Part shown: positions 5,413 to 28,764 of the stretch, piece after piece | Numbering within the stretch: the stretch's first letter is position 1 | Layout of the letters: every line of letters starts with the position of its first letter | IMG/VR virus record: IMGVR_UViG_2671180890_000008 | Direction: 5' to 3' (one strand) | DNA length: 32,106 nucleotides | From: a virus | Taxonomy: Duplodnaviria > Heunggongvirae > Uroviricota > Caudoviricetes | Translations under genes and position numbers: made by a program | The notes under the pieces: generated by a model | Seen by the model: only the letters and a program-made list of their open reading frames with translations | What the model was told of the DNA's origin: nothing | Databases searched by the model: none

Positions 5413-6603
5413 TTAATTGCTGTTAACCGAGGTGACCAGACTTGCCAGGTATCTTGAAGTAATACGCTGGCGCAGGGTCAGGTTTTCGAGGGGAGGCACC
5501 GGGGTATAGTCGTAGTCGATATACAGTTTTCCGGCCTTGAGGGTTTCCGCATCGTTGGATTCTTCACTGAACCAGCATGTGCCATCCACGATATAACCGT
5601 TGTTTTTCAGTTCGCGGAATTTGGCATTGATGCCGTCAATGATGTCGCGAATCAGCGTTGCGGTGATGGGCTTATCAATAGCCCACATGTGCGCCTCAAC
5701 CATCGTGTCGGCCAGTACCTGCGCAGTGCGTGTGTAGCTTTCAAAGAGGAACAGCGGGTCATCGGAGCAGGTACGGTTACCCCAGAAACGGAAACCGTCT
5801 CGGCGAACCAGCGTTGTGACGCCTGCCTCGTTCAGCAGGTCAGCATCAGTGCCAGACTTCTGCAAATCCCAGAATACAGATGCACTGATGCCGGTAACAC
5901 CGTTTACCCCGACGTTGGACAGCGTTTTATGCCAGCCCTGCTCCTGGTCGATTTTGGCACGCAGCCCCAGCGCACGGGCGGTGGCATACGCGGTGGCGGT
6001 GGTACTGGTGACCGTATCCCATGCGAGGAAATCCGGCCAGATAACCATCAGCTCACGCTGGCTGAAATTCTGGCGGTAGGCTTTCACCTCGGAAATGGTT
6101 TTACAGCCCCATGCGCTGATATACCCGAATGCATTCAGTTCCTGGCATACCGATGCCAGTGCGACGGCAACCTCTTTGGTGTCCAGCCCCGGCACACCGA
6201 GAATGCGCGGTTTAACGCCGGTAACCGACTCAGCCCCCATCAGGGCTTTCAGTCCGGTGTACTGACCGTTTTCGTCAGTGGTGCCGATGATATTGGAAAC
6301 GGTCTGCGCGAGTTTCGTTTCCTCGTCGTCGCCGGTGCCGTCTTCCACACGCACGACAACGGTGACCGGTTTTGACTGGTCGGCGATGGCCTGCAACGAT
6401 GCCGCCAGCGTGCCTTTTTTACCGGCCTTCGCAATTGCACTCTGCACATTGGTAATCAGCACCGGTTTATTGAGGGGGAAGGTTTCCGCATCCGCATCGC
6501 TGGCCGTGCAGACCATGCCGACAATGGCCGTGGATACGGTGGAAATGACGCGGGTGCCGTCGTTAATCTCCAGCACCTGCACGCCATGATGATAGTCACT
6601 CAT
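5413..6603 (-). CDS. FI: Contractile tail sheath protein FI, 396 aa
   Basis: 396 aa, first gene of the FI-FII-E-T-U-D operon; P2 gpFI length. Confidence 0.9.
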   Translation of the reverse strand: MSDYHHGVQVLEINDGTRVISTVSTAIVGMVCTASDADAETFPLNKPVLITNVQSAIAKAGKKGTLAASLQAIADQSKPVTVVVRVEDGTGDDEETKLAQTVSNIIGTTDENGQYTGLKALMGAESVTGVKPRILGVPGLDTKEVAVALASVCQELNAFGYISAWGCKTISEVKAYRQNFSQRELMVIWPDFLAWDTVTSTTATAYATARALGLRAKIDQEQGWHKTLSNVGVNGVTGISASVFWDLQKSGTDADLLNEAGVTTLVRRDGFRFWGNRTCSDDPLFLFESYTRTAQVLADTMVEAHMWAIDKPITATLIRDIIDGINAKFRELKNNGYIVDGTCWFSEESNDAETLKAGKLYIDYDYTPVPPLENLTLRQRITSRYLASLVTSVNSN

Positions 6604-6708
6604 CCGTTTAACTCCGTGGTTAATGGGTGCAACTATTTTCTGTTGTGCAGAGCATGAGACGCTATTTGCCCTGGATGGTCAGTGGATGAAACAACAGATA
6701 CAGAAAAG

Positions 6709-6725
6709 GCGGGCAATTCGCCCGC
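6709..6725. terminator. GC-rich hairpin (GCGGGC-aattc-GCCCGC) between the FI start and the cargo gene; possible terminator or insulator
   Basis: 6-bp GC stem with a 5-nt loop; the minus strand continues with CTTTTCT. Strand of action is ambiguous. Confidence 0.3.
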
Positions 6726-6919
6726 ATTTCCTAATTTGTACTAACCCAGCTTCCAACTGACAATTTACGTAGCCAAAAAGCTTTCAAGTCTGGCAGACTG
6801 ATTTGTACGAGGTGTGGATAACCATAATTATGTGCATGCTAACATCACGGTGCATGAGTCAATCGGGTCTATGCCAACGAATTACGCCTTGATTGACCAT
6901 AGATTGCTTGCCCTTGAAT

Positions 6920-6948
6920 TTGACCATTCCAATAAAATGAATTATGAT
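6920..6948 (+). promoter_or_regulatory. Candidate sigma70 promoter of the HTH cargo gene (-35 TTGACC, 17-nt spacer, -10 TATGAT)
   Basis: TTGACC at 6920-6925 and TATGAT at 6943-6948; GGAGG at 6960-6964 lies 6 nt before the ATG at 6971. The -35 is part of a TTGACCAT direct repeat (6893-6900 and 6920-6927). Confidence 0.35.
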
Positions 6949-6970
6949 AATCGTCAAATGGAGGTGCACA

Positions 6971-7615
6971 ATGATCAAACACACCGCAGCAGAAAGGGAA
7001 ACCAACACTTCAGCTAAGCTGAATGAATACCAGTTGAACCTTCTGAAAAGAATTAACAACCTCGCTATTTCCCTGATGCCTGAATTTGAAGACAAAAACC
7101 AGGCAATTAATGCTATCACGCTGGATGATAGTTCACTGATGCAATTGCTCTACACCGTTCAACTCGAACAGAAGACTCGTGTCAATGACTACGAACTACG
7201 TAAAGTGCGCCGTCGTCGCGAAAATCTGGAACGATTTTATCGTGGGCTTCAGGAGTTAGGCGGTACGCTAAAGGTAAATGACGTGGTCGATATTCTTGGA
7301 ATCACCCGCCAGGCGATCAACATTCGCGTTAAGAAGAACAAGCTTTTAGCATTCAAGCAGAACGGTGATTTTATTTTCCCGAAATTTCAGTTCACAGATA
7401 ACGGGCTGATTCCCGGCTTTGAAGACGTAATGGCGGCATTTGACGAGAATACCCATCCAATGCTGAGGTTGGGTGTGCTGAAATCACCAATAGAGGTTAA
7501 TAGCGAAGGCCTGAAAAAGACGCCGATTCAAATCATGCAGGACGGCGCTAAAAATAGTGAACTTAGTCTGGCTATCCGTGCCGCTAAACAGTTCGGAAAT
7601 CATGTATCCAGTTAA
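6971..7615 (+). CDS. Cargo gene: 214-aa HTH protein with an Xre/MbcA/ParS-like (DUF2384-type) antitoxin C-terminus and a ~100-aa charged N-terminal extension
   Basis: Start chosen at the second Met (MIKHTAAERE...) because of the GGAGG site. Putative HTH 'VVDILGITRQAINIRVKKNKL'. C-terminus '...TPIQIMQDGAKNSELSLAIRAAKQFG' fits the P-x2-hydrophobic...G...hydrophobic-rich...G pattern of RES-antitoxin toxin-binding domains as I recall them. Lower GC than the phage core. Confidence 0.5.
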   Translation: MIKHTAAERETNTSAKLNEYQLNLLKRINNLAISLMPEFEDKNQAINAITLDDSSLMQLLYTVQLEQKTRVNDYELRKVRRRRENLERFYRGLQELGGTLKVNDVVDILGITRQAINIRVKKNKLLAFKQNGDFIFPKFQFTDNGLIPGFEDVMAAFDENTHPMLRLGVLKSPIEVNSEGLKKTPIQIMQDGAKNSELSLAIRAAKQFGNHVSS

Positions 7616-7624
7616 TTGTTTTAA

Positions 7625-7650
7625 AAAGAGGGGCTAGCCAGCCCCTCTTT
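7625..7650. terminator. Bidirectional rho-independent terminator between the convergent cargo genes
   Basis: Perfect 11-bp stem AAAGAGGGGCT / AGCCCCTCTTT with a 4-nt loop (AGCC), sitting between the two stop codons (7613-7615 and 7654-7656). Confidence 0.7.
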
Positions 7651-7653
7651 GGT

Positions 7654-8364
7654 TTACATTGGTTCTGGCGTAATTTCGAATCCAAGCAGTTCTTCGAACA
7701 TCTCTTCACCTGACATCGTTCCTTTGTGCCACCCTTTAGGGAAGATACCTTCGTCATTTTCGATGTAACTGGCATAAGGCACCATCCCCTGAGGGGTATC
7801 GGTAAAGGCTGGTGTACTATCCGGTCGTTCCCAAAAGGCATAACAGCGTTTATAGCGTTTATGCCTTGAGGTATAGGCTATCCCGTCATAGTCACGCCCG
7901 AAATGTGTATAAAGATGTTCCATTAGCCATTGAGTAAAAGTGTAATCCTCGTTCTCTAAGCTATCCAAAGGAATATGTAACAACTCACAGAGCGCTACAA
8001 CATCGATCACTTTCACTGGCCTCATGACATCCACAGAGCACATATAGTGTTGTGAAAGTACCGATTCAGGATAAGAAATCGTCCCTTCGAGATGGAGCAA
8101 ACGCCCATAAGCTTCTGCCGCCGCCGTTAACGCAGAGTCAGAGGCATACCATACCGCCACACATCCCCCTGGGGGGTTGTATCGCCCACATTTATTTTCC
8201 TCAATTGGCGCTCTGAAGTTGATTGCGCTTTCATACAACGCCATTTGATGACGCTTCAAAAGACCAGAGCCTGGTTGAATGTCAATCGCCGGAATACGTC
8301 CAGATTTATTTTTTGCAGCAATTCCTTGTGCAACAATATTTTTTTCAAATGTCCATTTGGTCAT
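7654..8364 (-). CDS. Cargo gene: RES-domain protein (predicted NAD+-targeting toxin of the RES family), 236 aa
   Basis: Start set at Met17 (MTKWTFEK...), preceded by AGGAG with an 8-nt spacer. 'CGRYNPPGGCVAVWYASDSALTAAAEAYG' matches the RES-domain Arg/Glu core (G-R-x-N...Y-x-A...E), and 'GIAYTSRHKRY' supplies the conserved Ser region. Confidence 0.7.
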   Translation of the reverse strand: MTKWTFEKNIVAQGIAAKNKSGRIPAIDIQPGSGLLKRHQMALYESAINFRAPIEENKCGRYNPPGGCVAVWYASDSALTAAAEAYGRLLHLEGTISYPESVLSQHYMCSVDVMRPVKVIDVVALCELLHIPLDSLENEDYTFTQWLMEHLYTHFGRDYDGIAYTSRHKRYKRCYAFWERPDSTPAFTDTPQGMVPYASYIENDEGIFPKGWHKGTMSGEEMFEELLGFEITPEPM

Positions 8365-8481
8365 TTTTACTACTCCTTCTATAAACAGATTAAGCCATAG
8401 GCTCCTCTCCATATTGATTGAAAATAATCCCTACCGTGCTTGCCCGGCAGGGGGTATGAGAACATGTGTATCTCAATCTCG

Positions 8482-8490
8482 ATTATACCA
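8482..8490 (-). promoter_or_regulatory. Candidate extended -10 promoter (TGgTATAAT) for the RES gene
   Basis: Minus strand reads 'tttgctTGGTATAATcgag' about 120 nt upstream of the RES start; no convincing -35. The predicted leader contains a mini-ORF (GGAGAGGAGCCT ATG GCT TAA). Confidence 0.3.
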
Positions 8491-8779
8491 AGCAAATTTT
8501 CTATTTTTCGGAAATTTAGAGAGTTTTTTTAATGCTTCGCATGCCTTCTCGATGTATTGATGGGGCTGAAAAGAAGAAATAACGCAGGAAGTTTTACGGA
8601 AAGGAGAACTATAAAGATTTTTATCAAGTGAATTAGAAATAAGAACTTCGCAGGATACTGCATTTTTAGTGAAGATGGGTTGAGTTTCTCAGCAAGAGTC
8701 CCGCGAGAGCCGTATTGACAGCATGCATGACTCGGAGATTATTCCCCATGCAGGATGGTACACCAATGCAAGAGTTGGT

Positions 8780-8968
8780 TTACGCAAATGATTGGATGAT
8801 CGCGATTACCGACCGTACATTGCGCAAATAACGTTCTGCGTCGATGCTATTAAGATGCCCCGACCACACCGTACGACGGACGCCGTAGTGATCCGAGCTT
8901 AAGAATAGATAATCTTTTCTCTCCTGATTCACCGTTCGCAGTGCGTTTTCCATAGCTGTCGCAAGCAC
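8780..8968 (-). CDS. Short hypothetical ORF (62 aa in the track) downstream of G; possibly a gene remnant
   Basis: Open frame only; no convincing ribosome-binding site; sits next to an inverted repeat (8984-9023). Confidence 0.2.
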   Translation of the reverse strand: MLATAMENALRTVNQERKDYLFLSSDHYGVRRTVWSGHLNSIDAERYLRNVRSVIAIIQSFA

Positions 8969-9058
8969 AATACTTCCGCTACAGGCACAGAGCGGACTGT
9001 CAGATTAGGTTTTACTCTGTGCCATAGATGAGTAATCTCATACCAGAGCTAATACGAT

Positions 9059-9637
9059 TTATTGCGGCATTTCTGGCCATTCTATATCCGGAGCATCTTC
9101 CGGCTGAACGCGATTCAGTAGCACACGGTATTTTTTCCAGTGTGTCAGGCTTAACTTTTCTTCCTCGGTAGCCATATCTAAATCGACAGCATCCTGCAGC
9201 GTGGCAATAATTTCACCTGCATATGCAATCAGCTCTTTCTTCTGAGAGTCAGCCGCTCTGACAAGCGCATCACGCTCTGCATTCTCATCATTCACCCACG
9301 CATTTCCGTTCCATTTCTGATAATCCCCATCCGGGGAAATGGCTGTCACGTCTGGAGGTAATACGCCAAGTTCAGAAATATAAATGGCTACTCCCGTTTT
9401 CGTTTCATAGACGGTCTTTCCGCGATGGTCTTCCATCAGTTCCCATTTCATTTCATCTGCATTGAAAACGGCTGCATAACCAGCAGGAATATCAGGTGGT
9501 GCAATATCTGTACTGTTTGCAGGCAGACCTGTATGCGGCGGAATATATGCATCACTTTCGCCAATAAACTCATTGGTTCCATCAAGTAAATTGAAAACGC
9601 GGATAGTTTGTGCTTCTGCACTCATTCTGAAAGCCAT
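9059..9637 (-). CDS. G: Tail fiber assembly chaperone (lambda Tfa-like), 192 aa
   Basis: N-terminus '[54 protein letters not shown]' and C-terminus '[11 protein letters not shown]...[10 protein letters not shown]' closely resemble lambda Tfa and P2 gpG as remembered; start overlaps the H stop. Confidence 0.85.
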
Positions 9638-24267: not shown

Positions 24268-26100
24268 TCAAACAGAGCCCTGTTCAAATACAGTATCAAA
24301 ATATGGTAGGAGAGGATAAGCACACAGAAAGAAAATCAGGATGCATGCATATGTCGTTGTTTCATCGTAACAAGCATTAGTATATAAATTACCATGTGCT
24401 AATTTATGTCTTAAGGTTGCCCCACTCTTTCTATTAAAAAGAACATCGATAGTTAAAACAAGATTCTTAGAAAAGATACTTTCCAAATCATCTCTGCATT
24501 TATCTAGAAGCTGAGAAATACTTGTTGACTCCTCTAATCCCTTATCCAAATATCTAGTAGCATCCTTTCCACTAAGCTCATAATAATAACGAACCATACC
24601 TTCCATTTGTGGTATTAAAAGATAAGCTGCACTGATGTAATCTCCCTGCCATAATTTGTAAAAGCCCAAATTAAAAATCTCCCTAAACTCCGGCTTGACA
24701 ATTGGACTAGTTGTAACTAATTTAACGAATGTTGACAACGTCAAGCCATGTTCTTGAGAAAGTACATAGCGAGCAGGTTCAAAGACACCGTTTACAAAAA
24801 TCTTATGAGTAATCTCGAAATTTCTTAGATATTGATCAATAACAACATCATCACTCATATCTTTTTTATTATCCAACGGCGGGATTGTATATACCTTACG
24901 CCCACTCTCATCATTAATTTCTGTTCCAACAAAACTAGAGAATAAACTTTTTTCTGATAATCTTAAAACTTGCTCCCTCATGCTTTCAATATTTTCAATC
25001 GGTGTTTCACGCATTAAAACTTTGAATATATCGGGCAAAGAACGCCCCGTCAGTTTTTTTTCACTTTCAGCAACCAAGTCACTAATATCAATAGAATGGC
25101 TTAAAGTGACATATTCACTCCTTACTTCTTCTCTCAAATTAGCAAGTTGTTCCTTTAAATCTTCTATCTGTTGTCTATCACCACCGTACTGTCTTAATTC
25201 AGAGATAGCTGTTCTTAACCAAGAGATCTTACCCATATTATCAGGTCGATCTGTTGCAACTTTAATAGTAATATTTGCAGATGCCAGTTTACATCTCTTG
25301 GCACGTTCATACTCACCATTTTTTTCATAAATAACTGCACTTGTCATATAAAGTGATTTTACAGCATCATAATATTTTTTATCTTTATGCTGCTCAGCCA
25401 TCTTCTCAGCATTTTCCGCATACTGCAGATTATACCCATCAAAATCACGCACCATAAACCAAGTCAAATTATTGAAACCTTCAAAGATTAATCTTTCATT
25501 TTGAATACTATAAAGAGAATGAATGGCATTTTTAATCGCCATGTTTCCTTCTGATTTTCTAGGGTAGACCATTTTATTAATGTGCAAAGCCCTAGCAATA
25601 TAATCACGAGCAAAAATAAAGCAATTTAAATCACTTTCATTCATGCTTTCGTTTTTTATTATTAGTTTTTCAATTGCTATATTTAGCATTTCAGCATAGG
25701 AATCAATTGCTTTAATTGCCACGTCTTTATTTTTCCGGTTATTACACCAAACAACATCATATATTCTTGATAACAAAAATGGATTGGTTATTTTTTGAGA
25801 AACATATAAAAGACAGTCATTCACCTGCTCATCAAAATCTTCAGGCAATATTGATCTTTTATTACCCCAAATCATTTGGGGTTCAAATGATGGAGTGTTG
25901 TTAACAACTTGCAAATTGAAACTATATAGCATACCAAAAAGAGATGCTAATTTTTTCTCTTTGGGGTTTTCTGATGATTCAGCAATCCCATCCAGATATT
26001 TTTTTATTTTATGTGCATGAAATGTAACTGGTATATGCATAAAAACACTATAATCTAGTGTTTCAAGCTCTTCCCTTGTAAGAACAAAGATATCATTCAT
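24268..26100 (-). CDS. Cargo gene at the tin/old position: 610-aa protein of unknown function with a C-terminal R-x4-H-x-G (HEPN-like) motif; candidate single-gene anti-phage defence protein
   Basis: Long open frame in a strongly AT-rich island. Start at Met35 of the track ORF (MNDIFVLTREELETL...), preceded by AGGTG with a 6-nt spacer. No Walker A motif. 'ATLRHKLAHGNLY' is encoded at 24394-24411. Replaces P2 tin/old. Confidence 0.8.
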   Translation of the reverse strand: MNDIFVLTREELETLDYSVFMHIPVTFHAHKIKKYLDGIAESSENPKEKKLASLFGMLYSFNLQVVNNTPSFEPQMIWGNKRSILPEDFDEQVNDCLLYVSQKITNPFLLSRIYDVVWCNNRKNKDVAIKAIDSYAEMLNIAIEKLIIKNESMNESDLNCFIFARDYIARALHINKMVYPRKSEGNMAIKNAIHSLYSIQNERLIFEGFNNLTWFMVRDFDGYNLQYAENAEKMAEQHKDKKYYDAVKSLYMTSAVIYEKNGEYERAKRCKLASANITIKVATDRPDNMGKISWLRTAISELRQYGGDRQQIEDLKEQLANLREEVRSEYVTLSHSIDISDLVAESEKKLTGRSLPDIFKVLMRETPIENIESMREQVLRLSEKSLFSSFVGTEINDESGRKVYTIPPLDNKKDMSDDVVIDQYLRNFEITHKIFVNGVFEPARYVLSQEHGLTLSTFVKLVTTSPIVKPEFREIFNLGFYKLWQGDYISAAYLLIPQMEGMVRYYYELSGKDATRYLDKGLEESTSISQLLDKCRDDLESIFSKNLVLTIDVLFNRKSGATLRHKLAHGNLYTNACYDETTTYACILIFFLCAYPLLPYFDTVFEQGSV

Positions 26101-26116
26101 CGTTTTCACCTTTTTC

Positions 26117-26144
26117 AGTATAAATTTGCACACATTATTAGCAA
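26117..26144 (-). promoter_or_regulatory. Candidate sigma70 promoter for the 610-aa cargo gene (-35 TTGCTA, 16-nt spacer, -10 TATACT)
   Basis: Minus strand reads TTGCTA-(16 nt)-TATACT about 17 nt upstream of the start codon. Confidence 0.35.
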
Positions 26145-26216
26145 CATAATTATCAATAGTTAACACATGCAGATAAACAGCAATTTTACTATTATGCAAC
26201 AAATTAAATCAGATGT

Positions 26217-28499
26217 TTATTGCTCTGAATAACAATAAAACCAACTCCACTCATCAGCGACCGGATACGTGAATTTTTTCCCGTCATAATTTACGGTCGC
26301 GCCACGCGCCAGCGCCTCAAGGTCCCATCGCTGCGGCCTGATACCGTTCTGAGCAAGGTCAACGCGGATACGGGTAATTTGCATTCTTTCTGACCGGGTC
26401 AGTCTGGCAGATGGTGCAATTTCATGCGGTTTTAACGGGATTCCGTTTCTTTGCTGACGATTTGGTGTTCTCAGTCCGTGTTTTAATGCGCCCCTGAGCG
26501 CCATCACGACCTCCGGGTCACTCCATTCGATAACACCGTCATCTACCAGATTAAGCACTGCTGCGGCGTGCTCAGAAGGTGTGGGAGCCGGTGACGAAGT
26601 ATCACCACCGGTGAGCTTTCCACAGTTATTGACAGGACTCCGAGGCGCGGCGATGCCGCTTTTTAAAGTCAAAGGCTCAACGACCGGAACTTTCGGCACA
26701 ATGCGCCAGTCCGTCGTTCTGGTGATATGAATATGACGCGCGCCGAGATGCGGCGCGTAAATGCCGACCACTCTCTCGACTTCTTCCTCGTACTCGTTAA
26801 CGTCATCCGACGGACTACGGGCAACCCTGACAGTCTGACAATCGCGCGGAACATTTGCCCCACCCTGCGCGCTGATATACAACGCAAAATCACCTCTGTC
26901 TGCGGCAGCGCGTGCAGCCTCGACGCGTTCGTCAAACTCATCAGCAATACTGACGCCGCGAGGCAATTTGCGTAGTTCACGGTAAGCCCCCATTGTCGGC
27001 AGGCCAACCGTTTTAAATTGCGGGATGCGCCACGTTGACGCCCATGCGGTAACAGCCGCAGCAGTATCTTTCAGCGGCCTGCCGGTATCGTTATCGAGCT
27101 GACCATCCAGTGCATAGCCGTCGATGTTTTTTGAGATGTATTTCGCGATATACCCCGCAGCACCGCCCCGATTAAGGTGTTTTGCCTGAAAACGGTTTCG
27201 CGCGGCTCCTCTTTCGTCGCCATCCTCTTTGAGCGCATAGCGACGCATGATTTCGATAATCTGGTTACGCTGGCGCGGATTACAAAAAAGCATCATATGC
27301 CAGTGCGGCGTTCCGTCGTGGTGTGGCTCGACGACACGCAAACCGTAGACCTGTAAATCATTATCCTTGAATGCCGTGCGCATCAGGCTCCAGATATGGC
27401 AGAGATAACGCTGCGCATCCTTTGGATTAAATGCCTCATCGTTCCAGCCGTGATTTAGCTGGACAGTTTTACTTTCGCCTTTTCCGACCTGACGTGTCGG
27501 GTGATACTTTGACGGCGCGGTCAGCGTGATAAACATCCCCACATCACCCTCTGCTGCGGCGTAACGCTCAATACCGGCAATGGTGTTCATCAGCTCCATC
27601 CGGCGAATTTCAGGATTAGAAATACTGCCCATCACCTTACTGATAAGGTCGATGCGCTCGCCGGTTTCCCTGTTTTCAAGGTCACACGATTTAAGAAATT
27701 CCAGATTTGCCTGGCGGCGCGCACGCACATCACGAATGGCATGTTTACTGGCATAAGGAGAACGGTCTTTATTGACCTCCCCGACAGCAATCAGTAACGC
27801 CTCATGCCAGCGCATACGCTGGCCTTTAAGCTGATGAATCCACCACTCATCGTTAAACAGGCGGGCAATGGCAGAATATGCCTGCCTCGTGGTCATCTGC
27901 CCTTTACGGTATTTTTTCCAGTAGAGCGGGGAAATATTGAAAGCACGTGCAGCGCCAGCAACATGACCATACAGGTGAGCCTGCGCCTCATCCGTAAACA
28001 GCGATTCTTTTTCGCCATGGGCATCCACCCAGGCATCGCAGAGTTCCTCATACATCATGAAAAGCTGCGATGAGATACGGGCGGCAAATTTTTTCAGCTC
28101 CTTGTCATTCATTCCCGGCAGGCGCGCATAGTGGTCACGCTCTGCCAGAAACAGTAACGACGCGTCGGTGTTCATTTCATGGCGCTGATTCACGCGCTCA
28201 ATGCGCGGCCATAAACGACGCTGAAAAGTGGCTGTGAGGAAATAAAACCCGTGCACCGGGCTTTTATTGCGCCGGATGTAGTCATAGCGTGAAGTAAACA
28301 GCGAGCGCAAAAAGTAAGGCAGGCGGTTAATCGTGGATAAAACACCTTGCACCTGACGCATCTCGTCACGTGTAAGGGGTCTTTCGCGCCCGACAGCCTC
28401 GCGTGGCGTGTTCCATGCATAAGCACCGGTAAACGCCTTACCGGTGCCTGCGGCAAATGCTGACGGAGGGACAAAACGCCCGGAGGCTTTAACGGCCAT
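26217..28499 (-). CDS. A: Replication initiation protein A (rolling-circle nickase), 760 aa
   Basis: Start at the internal Met (MAVKASGRFVPPSAFAAGTGK...), which matches the P2 gpA N-terminus as remembered; length about equal to P2 gpA. Confidence 0.9.
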   Translation of the reverse strand: MAVKASGRFVPPSAFAAGTGKAFTGAYAWNTPREAVGRERPLTRDEMRQVQGVLSTINRLPYFLRSLFTSRYDYIRRNKSPVHGFYFLTATFQRRLWPRIERVNQRHEMNTDASLLFLAERDHYARLPGMNDKELKKFAARISSQLFMMYEELCDAWVDAHGEKESLFTDEAQAHLYGHVAGAARAFNISPLYWKKYRKGQMTTRQAYSAIARLFNDEWWIHQLKGQRMRWHEALLIAVGEVNKDRSPYASKHAIRDVRARRQANLEFLKSCDLENRETGERIDLISKVMGSISNPEIRRMELMNTIAGIERYAAAEGDVGMFITLTAPSKYHPTRQVGKGESKTVQLNHGWNDEAFNPKDAQRYLCHIWSLMRTAFKDNDLQVYGLRVVEPHHDGTPHWHMMLFCNPRQRNQIIEIMRRYALKEDGDERGAARNRFQAKHLNRGGAAGYIAKYISKNIDGYALDGQLDNDTGRPLKDTAAAVTAWASTWRIPQFKTVGLPTMGAYRELRKLPRGVSIADEFDERVEAARAAADRGDFALYISAQGGANVPRDCQTVRVARSPSDDVNEYEEEVERVVGIYAPHLGARHIHITRTTDWRIVPKVPVVEPLTLKSGIAAPRSPVNNCGKLTGGDTSSPAPTPSEHAAAVLNLVDDGVIEWSDPEVVMALRGALKHGLRTPNRQQRNGIPLKPHEIAPSARLTRSERMQITRIRVDLAQNGIRPQRWDLEALARGATVNYDGKKFTYPVADEWSWFYCYSEQ

Positions 28500-28764
28500 A
28501 TGAGCCAAAAGCCTCTGAACAACGCTTGCTGAGTTGCTCAACCTGCGCGTTTAAATCAGCAAAAGACTTTGCGCTTCCGGTCAGAATATCGTGATGCATC
28601 AGGCCGGAAACGAGCTGGCTTAATTTCGGGTAATAACCAACCACCGCCAGCCATTCCTGACCGGCGTTTTTACCGCTTTCCGCTCTCTTTTTCTCGTGGA
28701 GAATAAACTGAAAGCTGTCACTGGTAACGACATAACGTTCGCCAATTTCGATACGAATACTCAT
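28489..28764 (-). CDS. Small early-operon protein, 91 aa, function unknown
   Basis: ORF in the B-to-A interval where P2 carries orf80-83. Confidence 0.6.
   Translation of the reverse strand: MSIRIEIGERYVVTSDSFQFILHEKKRAESGKNAGQEWLAVVGYYPKLSQLVSGLMHHDILTGSAKSFADLNAQVEQLSKRCSEAFGSYGR

What the first reader, a model, noticed from the sequence alone, without database searches (positions are those of the whole stretch)
6604..8500. Convergent RES-toxin and Xre/MbcA/ParS-like HTH gene pair at the FI-G (Z/fun) position
A RES-domain protein (a family of NAD+-targeting toxins) and a 214-aa HTH protein with an antitoxin-like C-terminus face each other with only a perfect bidirectional terminator between their stop codons. 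Each has its own promoter-like signal. Known RES-Xre toxin-antitoxin pairs are co-directional operons with the antitoxin first, so the convergent layout is atypical. It sits where P2 carries the T5-exclusion gene Z/fun. I cannot recall the P2 Z/fun sequence, so one of these could be a Z/fun homolog.
Basis: partly seen in the sequence, partly recalled or inferred. Interest (0 to 1): 0.8.

Follow-up and report, generated by a model that had tools for sequence, protein, structure and literature searches.

The report
Convergent RES toxin and winged-helix partner
A P2-like E. coli prophage carries, in place of the Z/fun gene, a mobile two-gene module of a likely NAD+-destroying RES toxin facing a DNA-binding partner that probably keeps it in check; the face-to-face layout is conserved across many bacteria and, as far as I could find, has not been studied.

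Summary
Window 6971-7615 (+) encodes a 214-aa HTH protein. Window 7654-8364 (-) encodes a 236-aa RES protein (Pfam RES E 2e-12; model closest to MbcT). A perfect 11-bp hairpin lies between the stop codons, and the pair fills the P2 FI-G (Z/fun) slot.

- Neither protein resembles P2 Z/fun.
- Similarity to the DUF2384 toxin-binding domain is only sub-threshold.

The convergent layout is a conserved family trait, not an accident. It recurs, with a GC hairpin in a 27-39 nt gap, from 99% down to about 25-30% identity, on plasmids, ICE-like islands and this prophage. Every intact RES gene sampled has the partner. The partner often survives beside RES remnants.

A conserved palindrome brackets the partner's promoter and is almost always missing upstream of RES.

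Best reading: a non-canonical RES toxin-antitoxin or abortive-infection module. It is a new variant of a known kind. No activity has been tested.

The parts
6604..6818 (.). P2-backbone flank upstream of tail sheath gene FI. It belongs to the phage, not to the cargo, and marks the left edge of the insertion slot.
   Evidence: 87-89% identical to P2, Wphi and other Peduovirus genomes. The homology stops at about 6811-6818.
6909..6968 (+). Promoter of the HTH gene (-35 TTGACC at 6920-6925, -10 TATGAT at 6943-6948), bracketed by an operator-like palindrome: ATTTGACCAT at 6918-6927 and ATCGTCAAAT at 6950-6959. The Shine-Dalgarno GGAGG is at 6960-6964.
   Evidence: Promoter scan and inverted repeat I1. 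The half-sites are exact and occur as a pair only here in the 32-kb window. TTTGAC...GTCAAA at the same spacing is kept in nearly all loci down to 50% protein identity, while the surrounding DNA diverges. A remote clade carries a different inverted repeat at the same place.
6971..7615 (+). 214-aa partner protein. It has an N-terminal helical region (about residues 1-95), a winged HTH (about 98-140) and a C-terminal helical domain (about 150-213). It is the putative antitoxin and autoregulator.
7625..7650 (.). Bidirectional intrinsic terminator: an 11-bp perfect stem and 4-nt loop in the 38-nt gap between the two stop codons.
   Evidence: In 25+ related loci, a GC-rich hairpin sits in a 27-39 nt gap, kept with quite different stem sequences.
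7654..8364 (-). 236-aa RES-domain protein, the putative NAD+-degrading toxin or effector.
   Evidence: Pfam RES E 2.2e-12. AF2 pLDDT is 87. Foldseek top hits are MbcT 6fkg (E 1e-7), NatT, P. putida RES, VPA0770 and ParT. R61 and E84 are invariant in 23 homologs, with S166 at 90% or more. dN/dS is 0.16-0.28. RefSeq names it 'RES family NAD+ phosphorylase'.
8365..8495 (-). RES leader and promoter. It holds an extended -10, TGGTATAAT (8490-8482), and a leader of about 110 nt with two hairpins. One hairpin is terminator-like (8452-8429, followed by ATTATTTT). A conserved AGCCTATGGCT element lies just before the Shine-Dalgarno.
   Evidence: Alignment of RES upstream regions, terminator scan and fold (z -1.9, so only weakly better than shuffles). 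The HTH operator half-sites are absent here.
8496..8757 (.). Non-coding tail of the mobile module, carried along with the two genes in other genera.
   Evidence: Homology to Pantoea, Rahnella and Proteus loci runs to 8657-8757.
8780..8968 (-). Transposase C-terminal remnant (62-aa ORF). It is likely a scar of how cargo entered this slot, not part of the two-gene system.
   Evidence: PHROG transposase families at E 1e-6 and 2e-5. Other P2-like prophages carry an annotated partial IS3 transposase at the same place next to G.
8972..9058 (.). P2-backbone flank downstream of gene G. It marks the right edge of the insertion slot.
   Evidence: 88-94% identical to P2 and to other P2-like prophages.

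Best explanation
This is a mobile, two-gene toxin-antitoxin-like module of a previously undescribed architecture.

Proposed mechanism:
- The RES protein is an ADP-ribosyltransferase-fold enzyme. When free, it destroys NAD+, most likely by phosphorolysis to nicotinamide and ADPR-1''-phosphate as in MbcT and aRES, and so arrests or kills the cell.
- The convergently encoded 214-aa protein is its obligate partner. It binds its own promoter through a winged helix, at the TTTGAC-N27-GTCAAA palindrome, to set its own level.
- The partner most likely neutralises RES by direct protein-protein binding through its Rv2175c-like C-terminal domain and/or its N-terminal helices.
- The two genes are separate transcription units, insulated by a bidirectional terminator. 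RES has its own promoter and a structured leader.
- In the P2-like prophage the module sits in the Z/fun moron slot. There it most likely acts as an abortive-infection or superinfection-exclusion device and, as a side effect, as an addiction module for the element that carries it.

What is shown and what is inferred:
- Shown here: the domain identities, the conserved architecture, the genetic linkage and asymmetric decay, the conserved operator and the mobility.
- Inferred: the enzymatic activity, the toxicity, neutralisation by binding, and the anti-phage role.
For: RES identity:
- Pfam RES E 2e-12.
- The model matches MbcT, NatT, P. putida RES and ParT.
- The name-giving R and E are invariant and S is at 90% or more.

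Functional linkage:
- The convergent pair recurs in 12 of 19 genome loci found through the partner.
- It recurs in 3 of 3 loci found through RES.
- It recurs on plasmids of E. coli, Klebsiella, Pantoea, Vibrio and Aeromonas.
- It recurs in remote relatives at 25-30% identity.
- It moves as one block, window about 6810-8757, between unrelated contexts.

Toxin-like asymmetry:
- No intact RES was seen without the partner.
- Intact partners sit next to RES remnants, a frameshifted RES, an IS, or nothing (L004, L005, L007, L014-L017, L024, L032).

Autoregulation and post-transcriptional control of RES:
- The palindrome bracketing the -35 and -10 of the partner's promoter is conserved down to 50% identity. 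It is replaced by a different inverted repeat in a remote clade.
- It is absent upstream of RES in all but one locus.

Partner fold:
- Rv2175c-like wHTH plus C-domain.
- Sub-threshold Xre-MbcA-ParS_M and Xre_MbcA_ParS_C hits in relatives.

Selection: both genes are under purifying selection.

Defence context:
- The P2 Z/fun locus is a known defence hotspot (PMC13586616).
- RES NADases defend against phage (aRES, bioRxiv 10.64898/2026.01.28.702374).
- Relatives lie beside a type I RM system and on ICE-like and plasmid backbones with ArdC, TraI or MobA.
Against: - No experiment exists and no complex model could be run. Toxicity, NAD+ degradation and neutralisation are all inferred.
- The window partner has no Pfam hit. 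Its similarity to known RES antitoxins is not significant (Foldseek MbcA E 0.65).
- Asymmetric decay would also arise if the partner were only a transcriptional repressor of RES.
- PADLOC v2 has no model for either protein, so there is no prior defence evidence.
- In P2-like prophages the cargo is rare: 10 of 936 E. coli genomes that match the slot flanks, and 4 identical IMG/VR contigs.
- In the A. salmonicida pAsa2 derivatives pAsa7 and pAsaXII, orf2 and orf3 (two hypothetical ORFs that I take to be this pair, a correspondence I did not verify) were replaced without obvious harm. pAsa2 was still present in those strains (PMC5736529).
Confidence: 0.6

Rival explanations
1. Regulator-plus-effector defence system. 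In this reading the RES protein is self-inhibited and senses phage by itself, as the standalone aRES proteins do. The wHTH protein is only a transcription factor of the BrxR/CapW kind that keeps RES expression low. It does not neutralise RES at the protein level.
For: The two genes have separate promoters and an insulating terminator. The partner's best-supported property is DNA binding. The RES protein has about 45 N-terminal and 35 C-terminal residues beyond the Pfam RES match, which could act as a sensor or lid. aRES shows that a RES NADase can be held inactive without an antitoxin (bioRxiv 10.64898/2026.01.28.702374). The asymmetric decay fits a repressor equally well.
Against: The partner's conserved operator is almost always absent upstream of RES, so direct repression of RES would need a second, unseen site. 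The partner carries a large conserved non-DNA-binding portion: an N-terminal region of about 95 aa and an Rv2175c-like C-domain with weak antitoxin resemblance. A pure repressor would not need this. The 236-aa RES lacks the second domain (PF18870) that defines aRES.
Confidence: 0.25
2. Pure addiction (post-segregational killing) module. It stabilises plasmids, ICEs and the prophage and has no role in phage defence. Its presence at the Z/fun slot would then be hitch-hiking.
For: The family is found mostly on plasmids: 141 PLSDB records, 114 of them conjugative, plus the 5.2-kb pAsa2. The canonical RES-Xre knaAT stabilises a Klebsiella virulence plasmid (PMC10896132). An IS remnant lies next to the module.
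Against: The P2 Z/fun and cos-proximal slots are enriched for defence cargo (PMC9122126, PMC13586616). A RES NADase has been shown to defend against phages (aRES preprint). The two roles do not exclude each other.
Confidence: 0.3
3. The pair is the P2 Z/fun (T5-exclusion) locus, or a diverged homolog of it.
For: Only the position between FI and G.
Against: BLASTP of both proteins against P2 Z/fun gives no alignment better than E 0.68. Z/fun and orf30 fall in phrog_5814 and phrog_31842, and the window proteins do not. P2's two genes are co-directional on the opposite strand to G.
Confidence: 0.01
4. Two unrelated genes that happen to be neighbours.
For: None beyond the lack of a shared operon.
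Against: The same convergent pair, with the hairpin, is seen in dozens of unrelated contexts and at 25-99% identity.
Confidence: 0.02

Closest known systems
RES-Xre type II toxin-antitoxin systems (MbcT-MbcA of M. tuberculosis, P. putida RES-Xre, NatT-NatR, KnaT-KnaA, ParT-ParS)
   Same: The toxin has the same RES / ADP-ribosyltransferase fold. It is a two-gene module with a DNA-binding partner, it is carried on mobile elements, and the partner is probably autoregulated.
   Different: The genes are convergent, with separate promoters and a terminator between them, rather than a co-transcribed operon (knaAT is co-transcribed, PMC10896132). The partner has a winged helix of the HTH_17/Rv2175c type and a 95-aa N-terminal extension instead of an Xre HTH. 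The DUF2384 toxin-binding domain is not detectable above threshold. The operator is almost always missing from the toxin promoter. The toxin is only about 15% identical to MbcT.
aRES, antiphage standalone RES proteins (Osterman et al., bioRxiv 10.64898/2026.01.28.702374)
   Same: A RES NADase used against phages in Enterobacteria, found in defence-rich regions. It is the closest precedent for the function expected at a prophage defence hotspot.
   Different: aRES proteins are 300-600 aa, carry PF18870 plus RES, and have no partner gene. The window protein is 236 aa, has no second Pfam domain, and in this sample never occurs without its partner.
Rv2175c of M. tuberculosis (PDB 2kfs), a DNA-binding wHTH protein
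   Same: It is the best structural and profile match of the partner, and the match covers both the winged helix and the C-terminal helical domain.
   Different: Sequence identity is 13-14%. The window protein adds about 95 N-terminal residues. I did not examine the gene neighbourhood of Rv2175c, and I recall no RES gene next to it.
P2 Z/fun locus and other cargo of P2-like hotspots (Rousset et al. 2022, PMC9122126; PMC13586616)
   Same: It occupies the same variable slot between FI and G of a P2-like prophage, which holds exchangeable accessory or defence cargo.
   Different: It has no sequence relationship to Z/fun or orf30. Full-text word searches of the two hotspot papers for 'RES' found only journal abbreviations; their supplementary tables were not searched.

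Membership tests
RES domain superfamily (PF08808) | Significant match to the RES profile above the curated threshold | tested here: met
   47.7 bits against a cut-off of 23.2, E 2.2e-12, residues 66-198. All 34 homologs carry PF08808.
RES domain superfamily (PF08808) | ART-like fold shared with solved RES toxins | tested here: met
   AF2 model pLDDT 87. Foldseek: MbcT E 1e-7 with probability 1.00, NatT 1.6e-3, P. putida RES 1.3e-2.
RES domain superfamily (PF08808) | Conserved Arg, Glu and Ser that give the domain its name | tested here: met
   R61 (GRYNP) and E84 (AEAYGR) are invariant, and S166 (YTSRH) is at 90% or more, in 23 homologs. Equivalence to the catalytic residues of MbcT or KnaT is inferred from motif context, not from a superposition.
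RES domain superfamily (PF08808) | NAD+ degradation (phosphorolysis) and growth arrest | not testable with these tools
   Needs expression and metabolite assays.
Canonical RES-Xre type II TA | Co-directional, co-transcribed operon of antitoxin and toxin | tested here: not met
   The genes are convergent with a terminator between the stops. The same holds in all relatives sampled.
Canonical RES-Xre type II TA | Antitoxin with an Xre-type (HTH_3 / Xre-like-HTH) DNA-binding domain | tested here: not met
   The best matches are Rv2175c_wHTH, HTH_17 and MerR/excisionase-type winged helices.
Canonical RES-Xre type II TA | Antitoxin C-terminal Xre_MbcA_ParS_C (DUF2384, PF09722) toxin-binding domain | tested here: inconclusive
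Canonical RES-Xre type II TA | Partner neutralises the toxin by direct binding | not testable with these tools
   No multimer prediction was available. Only genetic asymmetry supports it: RES is never seen alone, while the partner often is.
aRES antiphage system | Standalone 300-600 aa protein with RES plus PF18870, and no partner gene | tested here: not met
   The protein is 236 aa, RES is its only Pfam domain at E<=1, and it is always paired.
P2 Z/fun | Sequence similarity to P2 Z/fun or orf30 | tested here: not met
   BLASTP finds no significant alignment. The PHROG families differ.
Rv2175c-like DNA-binding proteins | wHTH followed by the Rv2175c C-terminal helical domain | tested here: met
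Known or candidate defence systems in PADLOC-DB v2 | Match to any PADLOC model | tested here: not met
   No hit for either protein at E<=1.

The most novel reading that the evidence does not exclude
The convergent RES / Rv2175c-like pair could be a distinct, widespread class of NAD+-depleting abortive-infection system. In this reading the winged-helix partner is at once autorepressor, antitoxin and phage sensor, and the insulated convergent layout is what lets the toxin:partner ratio flip on infection. A corollary follows: the Rv2175c C-terminal domain would be an ancient toxin-binding module. That would give a first functional handle on the M. tuberculosis protein Rv2175c, whose C-terminal domain Pfam still lists as 'of unknown function', and on the more than 1,400 relatives found here.
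Probability: 0.2. Interest if true: 0.75.

Novelty: new variant of a known kind. Interest (0 to 1): 0.55.

Why it matters
RES enzymes are established NAD+-destroying toxins, and a 2026 preprint reports that RES enzymes also act as antiphage effectors. This module would add a third way of wiring them. The partner is unlike the canonical Xre/DUF2384 antitoxin, and the two convergent genes are separate, terminator-insulated transcription units. That layout challenges the usual rule that type II toxin and antitoxin must be co-transcribed.

The module is common on large conjugative Klebsiella and Raoultella plasmids. It is also on the A. salmonicida plasmid pAsa2, which is called 'cryptic' and for which no stability system has been described. 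So it may explain plasmid persistence as well as prophage-encoded immunity.

It is directly testable with simple toxicity and rescue, NAD+ and phage-plating assays. The conserved palindrome gives a ready target for DNA-binding tests.

Tried and rejected
- **Z/fun homology:** rejected by BLASTP and PHROGs.
- **Known defence system:** PADLOC and NCBIfam have no model for either protein.
- **aRES membership:** rejected on length, domain content and pairing.
- **Sequence link from the RES family profile to solved RES toxins:** none found. Only fold comparison links them.
- **Direct proof that the partner's C-terminus is DUF2384:**
  - Pfam on the protein, on 28 close homologs and on 80 remote homologs gave only sub-threshold hits.
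  - PDB profile searches found Rv2175c but no antitoxin.
  - A single remote member found nothing.
  - A regex for the canonical W..P...LGG..P motif found nothing.
  - I could not obtain canonical antitoxin sequences for an hhalign test.
- **Operator shared between the two promoters:** not found.
- **Known RNA family in the RES leader or the intergenic region:** none. The leader folds only marginally better than shuffles, z -1.9.
- **afdb50 fold search:** the library was unavailable.
- **Literature searches** for a convergent RES pair, for Rv2175c with RES, and for the pAsa2 orf2/orf3 function: no description found.
- **Phage distribution:** IMG/VR holds only four identical copies of this same prophage.
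Full report
**What is there**

The window is a P2-like (Peduovirus) prophage; it is IMG/VR contig UViG_2925897562_000005. Between tail sheath gene FI (5413-6603, -) and tail-fibre assembly gene G (9059-9637, -) lies a 2.45-kb insert.

The insert holds two convergent genes.
- ORF 6971-7615 (+) encodes 214 aa. Its ATG follows GGAGG by seven bases.
- ORF 7654-8364 (-) encodes 236 aa, and its ATG follows GAAGGAG. The mechanical ORF reaches 8412.

RefSeq calls the two genes at the same coordinates, as 'hypothetical protein' and 'RES family NAD+ phosphorylase'.

The 38 nt between the stop codons contain a perfect 11-bp GC-rich stem with a 4-nt loop (7625-7650), flanked by T-runs on both strands.

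P2 itself carries orf30 and Z/fun in this slot, both on the strand opposite to G. Homology to the P2 backbone ends at about 6818 and resumes at 8972.

**The RES protein**

- Pfam RES scores 47.7 bits against a gathering score of 23.2, E 2.2e-12.
- The AlphaFold model is confident, with pLDDT 87 and pTM 0.84.
- Its best matches among solved structures are the RES toxins MbcT (E 1e-7), NatT, P. putida RES, VPA0770 and ParT, followed by diphtheria-toxin catalytic domains. That is the expected ADP-ribosyltransferase fold.
- In 23 homologs at 55-88% identity, R61 (GRYNP) and E84 are invariant and S166 is nearly so.
- The family profile does not reach any solved RES toxin by sequence alone, and identity to MbcT is about 15%. 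This is a divergent RES clade.
- About 45 N-terminal and 35 C-terminal residues lie outside the Pfam match.

**The partner**

The window protein has no hit in Pfam, NCBIfam or PADLOC.

Close homologs give Rv2175c_wHTH and HTH_17 hits, and one exceeds the gathering score. PHROGs sees an excisionase-type HTH.

An exhaustive profile search found 1,451 relatives at E<=1e-3. A profile of 80 of them hits Rv2175c at E 8e-12 across both domains.

So the partner is an Rv2175c-like wHTH protein with an extra N-terminal helical region of about 95 aa. It is not an Xre-type protein.

Whether its C-terminal domain is the DUF2384 toxin-binding domain is unresolved.
- Foldseek gives MbcA E 0.65.
- Among the 80 remote relatives, only 4 give sub-threshold PF09722 hits, 8 give Rv2175c_C hits and 12 give hits to the 'Xre-MbcA-ParS middle domain'.
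- By eye, the remote members' consensus C-termini (e.g. ...PWMQ..FFL....RL.GR.P.D.L..G....V.RAA..YGE.GA) resemble the DUF2384 motif as I recall it. That is a lead, not a test.

**The pair is a unit, and the convergent layout is conserved**

The identical insert is present in 10 of 5,426 complete E. coli genomes, always in the P2 slot.

Strain A28 has the same pair at 87% identity in an unrelated island with ArdC and IS66. The DNA shared with other genera spans window about 6810-8757. The module therefore moves as a block that includes both promoters.

The convergent pair was found repeatedly:
- In 19 species-representative genomes found through the partner, 12 have a full-length RES gene convergent to it.
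- All three loci found through RES homologs have the convergent partner of about 213 aa.
- On plasmids the RES protein is found in 141 records, mostly large conjugative Klebsiella and Raoultella plasmids.
- In E. coli IncI, K. pneumoniae IncFIB/HI1B, Pantoea, Vibrio atlanticus and the 5.2-kb A. salmonicida pAsa2, the neighbour is again a convergent protein of 200-213 aa.
- Remote partners at 25-30% identity still face a RES gene. One faces a RES-like 227-aa protein without a Pfam hit.

Across these loci the inter-stop gap is 27-39 nt and folds into a GC-rich hairpin. The stem sequence differs between clades: GAGGGGC/GCCCCTC, GTGTCGCC/GGCGACAC, GCACTGC/GCAGTGC and AGCCTGGC/GCCAGGCT. The exceptions are two loci with gaps of 10-13 nt and one with only a weak fold (L010). 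The terminator itself is therefore under selection.

Both genes evolve under purifying selection. dN/dS is 0.08-0.09 for the partner and 0.16-0.28 for RES.

**Asymmetry**

I found no intact RES gene without the partner. The reverse is common.
- Intact partner genes lie next to a 25-85-codon RES remnant in L004, L007 and L016.
- One lies next to a frameshifted RES in L005.
- One lies next to an IS in L015.
- Others lie next to no RES at all, in L014, L017, L024 and L032.

This is the pattern expected when one gene is harmful without the other.

**Regulation**

The partner's promoter (TTGACC-17-TATGAT) is bracketed by exact inverted half-sites, ATTTGACCAT at 6918-6927 and ATCGTCAAAT at 6950-6959. 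They occur as a pair only here in the window.

TTTGAC...GTCAAA at the same spacing survives in nearly all loci down to 50% protein identity, while the neighbouring DNA is unalignable. A remote clade carries a different inverted repeat (TTTACAC/GTGTAAA) at the same place. This co-variation of site and protein argues for autoregulation by the wHTH.

The half-sites are absent from the 260 nt upstream of RES in all but one locus. RES has a conserved extended -10 (TGGTATAAT, 8490-8482). Its leader of about 110 nt holds a terminator-like hairpin (8452-8429) and a conserved AGCCTATGGCT element before the ribosome-binding site.

Because the partner's operator is not at the RES promoter, control of RES by the partner is more likely post-translational than transcriptional. 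This is an inference.

**Best explanation and rivals**

The data fit a toxin-antitoxin-like module. A RES NAD+-degrading effector is held in check by an autoregulated Rv2175c-like partner, and the module is carried on plasmids, ICE-like islands and, here, the Z/fun moron slot of a P2-like prophage. In that slot an abortive-infection or exclusion role is the natural expectation. The slot is a recognised defence hotspot (PMC13586616; the cos hotspot is described in PMC9122126). RES NADases defend E. coli against phages (aRES, bioRxiv 10.64898/2026.01.28.702374).

The main rival is that the partner is only a transcription factor and that RES is self-inhibited like aRES. The missing operator at RES and the partner's large non-DNA-binding portion count against this rival, but do not exclude it.

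An addiction-only role is compatible with the plasmid distribution and does not exclude a defence role.

Z/fun homology is refuted.

**Comparison with what is known**

Canonical RES-Xre systems are co-transcribed operons with an Xre/DUF2384 antitoxin (e.g. knaAT, PMC10896132). Here two of the defining features fail (operon layout, Xre HTH) and one is inconclusive (DUF2384). The module works like a RES TA system but should not be filed as a canonical member.

It is not aRES, which is standalone, 300-600 aa, and carries RES plus PF18870.

Iyer et al. noted that some phage-borne TA systems couple RES to an HTH antitoxin (PMC9503650). The general idea is therefore known.

I found no description of the convergent architecture or of the Rv2175c-like partner. 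pAsa2 is still described as cryptic, with orf2 and orf3 called hypothetical (PMC5736529). I infer, but did not verify, that these are the RES and HTH genes.

Verdict: a real, conserved, uncharacterised variant of a known kind. Interest is moderate. Every functional step awaits experiment.

Noticed in passing
window 24268-28541 (-): Two large ORFs (644 and 774 aa) lie after gene Q, which is the cos-proximal P2 defence hotspot. The 644-aa protein matches the PADLOC candidate system PDC-S39 (E 4e-84). The 774-aa neighbour has no PADLOC hit. The prophage therefore carries candidate defence cargo at both hotspots.
   Followed up: partly
window 8780-8968 (-): A 62-aa ORF is a transposase C-terminal fragment (PHROG transposase families, E 1e-6). 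Other P2-like prophages carry an annotated partial IS3 transposase at the same spot next to G. This suggests IS-mediated turnover of cargo at this slot.
   Followed up: partly
window 8429-8452 (- strand) and 8392-8404: A terminator-like hairpin followed by ATTATTTT sits inside the RES 5' leader, between its promoter and start codon. A conserved AGCCTATGGCT mini-palindrome lies just before the Shine-Dalgarno. The hairpin could attenuate RES expression or block read-through from the phage late operon ending at G. No clear intrinsic terminator is seen right after G.
   Followed up: partly
window 9096-9200 (-): There is a weak Rfam match to IS009 (35.5 bits against a gathering score of 117, E 6e-6) inside the tail-fibre assembly gene G. 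It is probably sequence homology to a P2-like remnant from which that family was defined.
   Followed up: no
L043 (A. salmonicida pAsa2, NC_004925) 476-1850: The 5.2-kb plasmid pAsa2 carries the same convergent RES / HTH pair at about 32-35% identity. pAsa2 is described as cryptic, and no stability system has been reported on it. The literature calls its orf2 and orf3 hypothetical and notes that both are lost together in the derivatives pAsa7 and pAsaXII (PMC5736529). That orf2/orf3 are this pair is my inference.
   Followed up: partly
L026, L028, L042, L043 (upstream of the partner gene): In the remote clade (about 30% identity) the partner's promoter carries a different inverted repeat, TTTACAC...GTGTAAA, instead of TTTGAC...GTCAAA. 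Operator and protein appear to have co-diverged.
   Followed up: partly
L024 (GCA_023988745.1) and L032 (JGI 3300053034): Orphan partner genes without RES sit in islands of other TA or defence genes: RelE/HTH_3 and HipA/HipB in L024; a caspase-like peptidase, Fic/HTH_3 and a SAVED-domain protein in L032.
   Followed up: no
L005 (Erwinia sp. AnSW2-5) and protein P0008: The partner homolog is annotated as 335 aa rather than 214, and the adjacent RES gene is frameshifted. This may be an assembly or annotation artefact, or a decaying locus.
   Followed up: no
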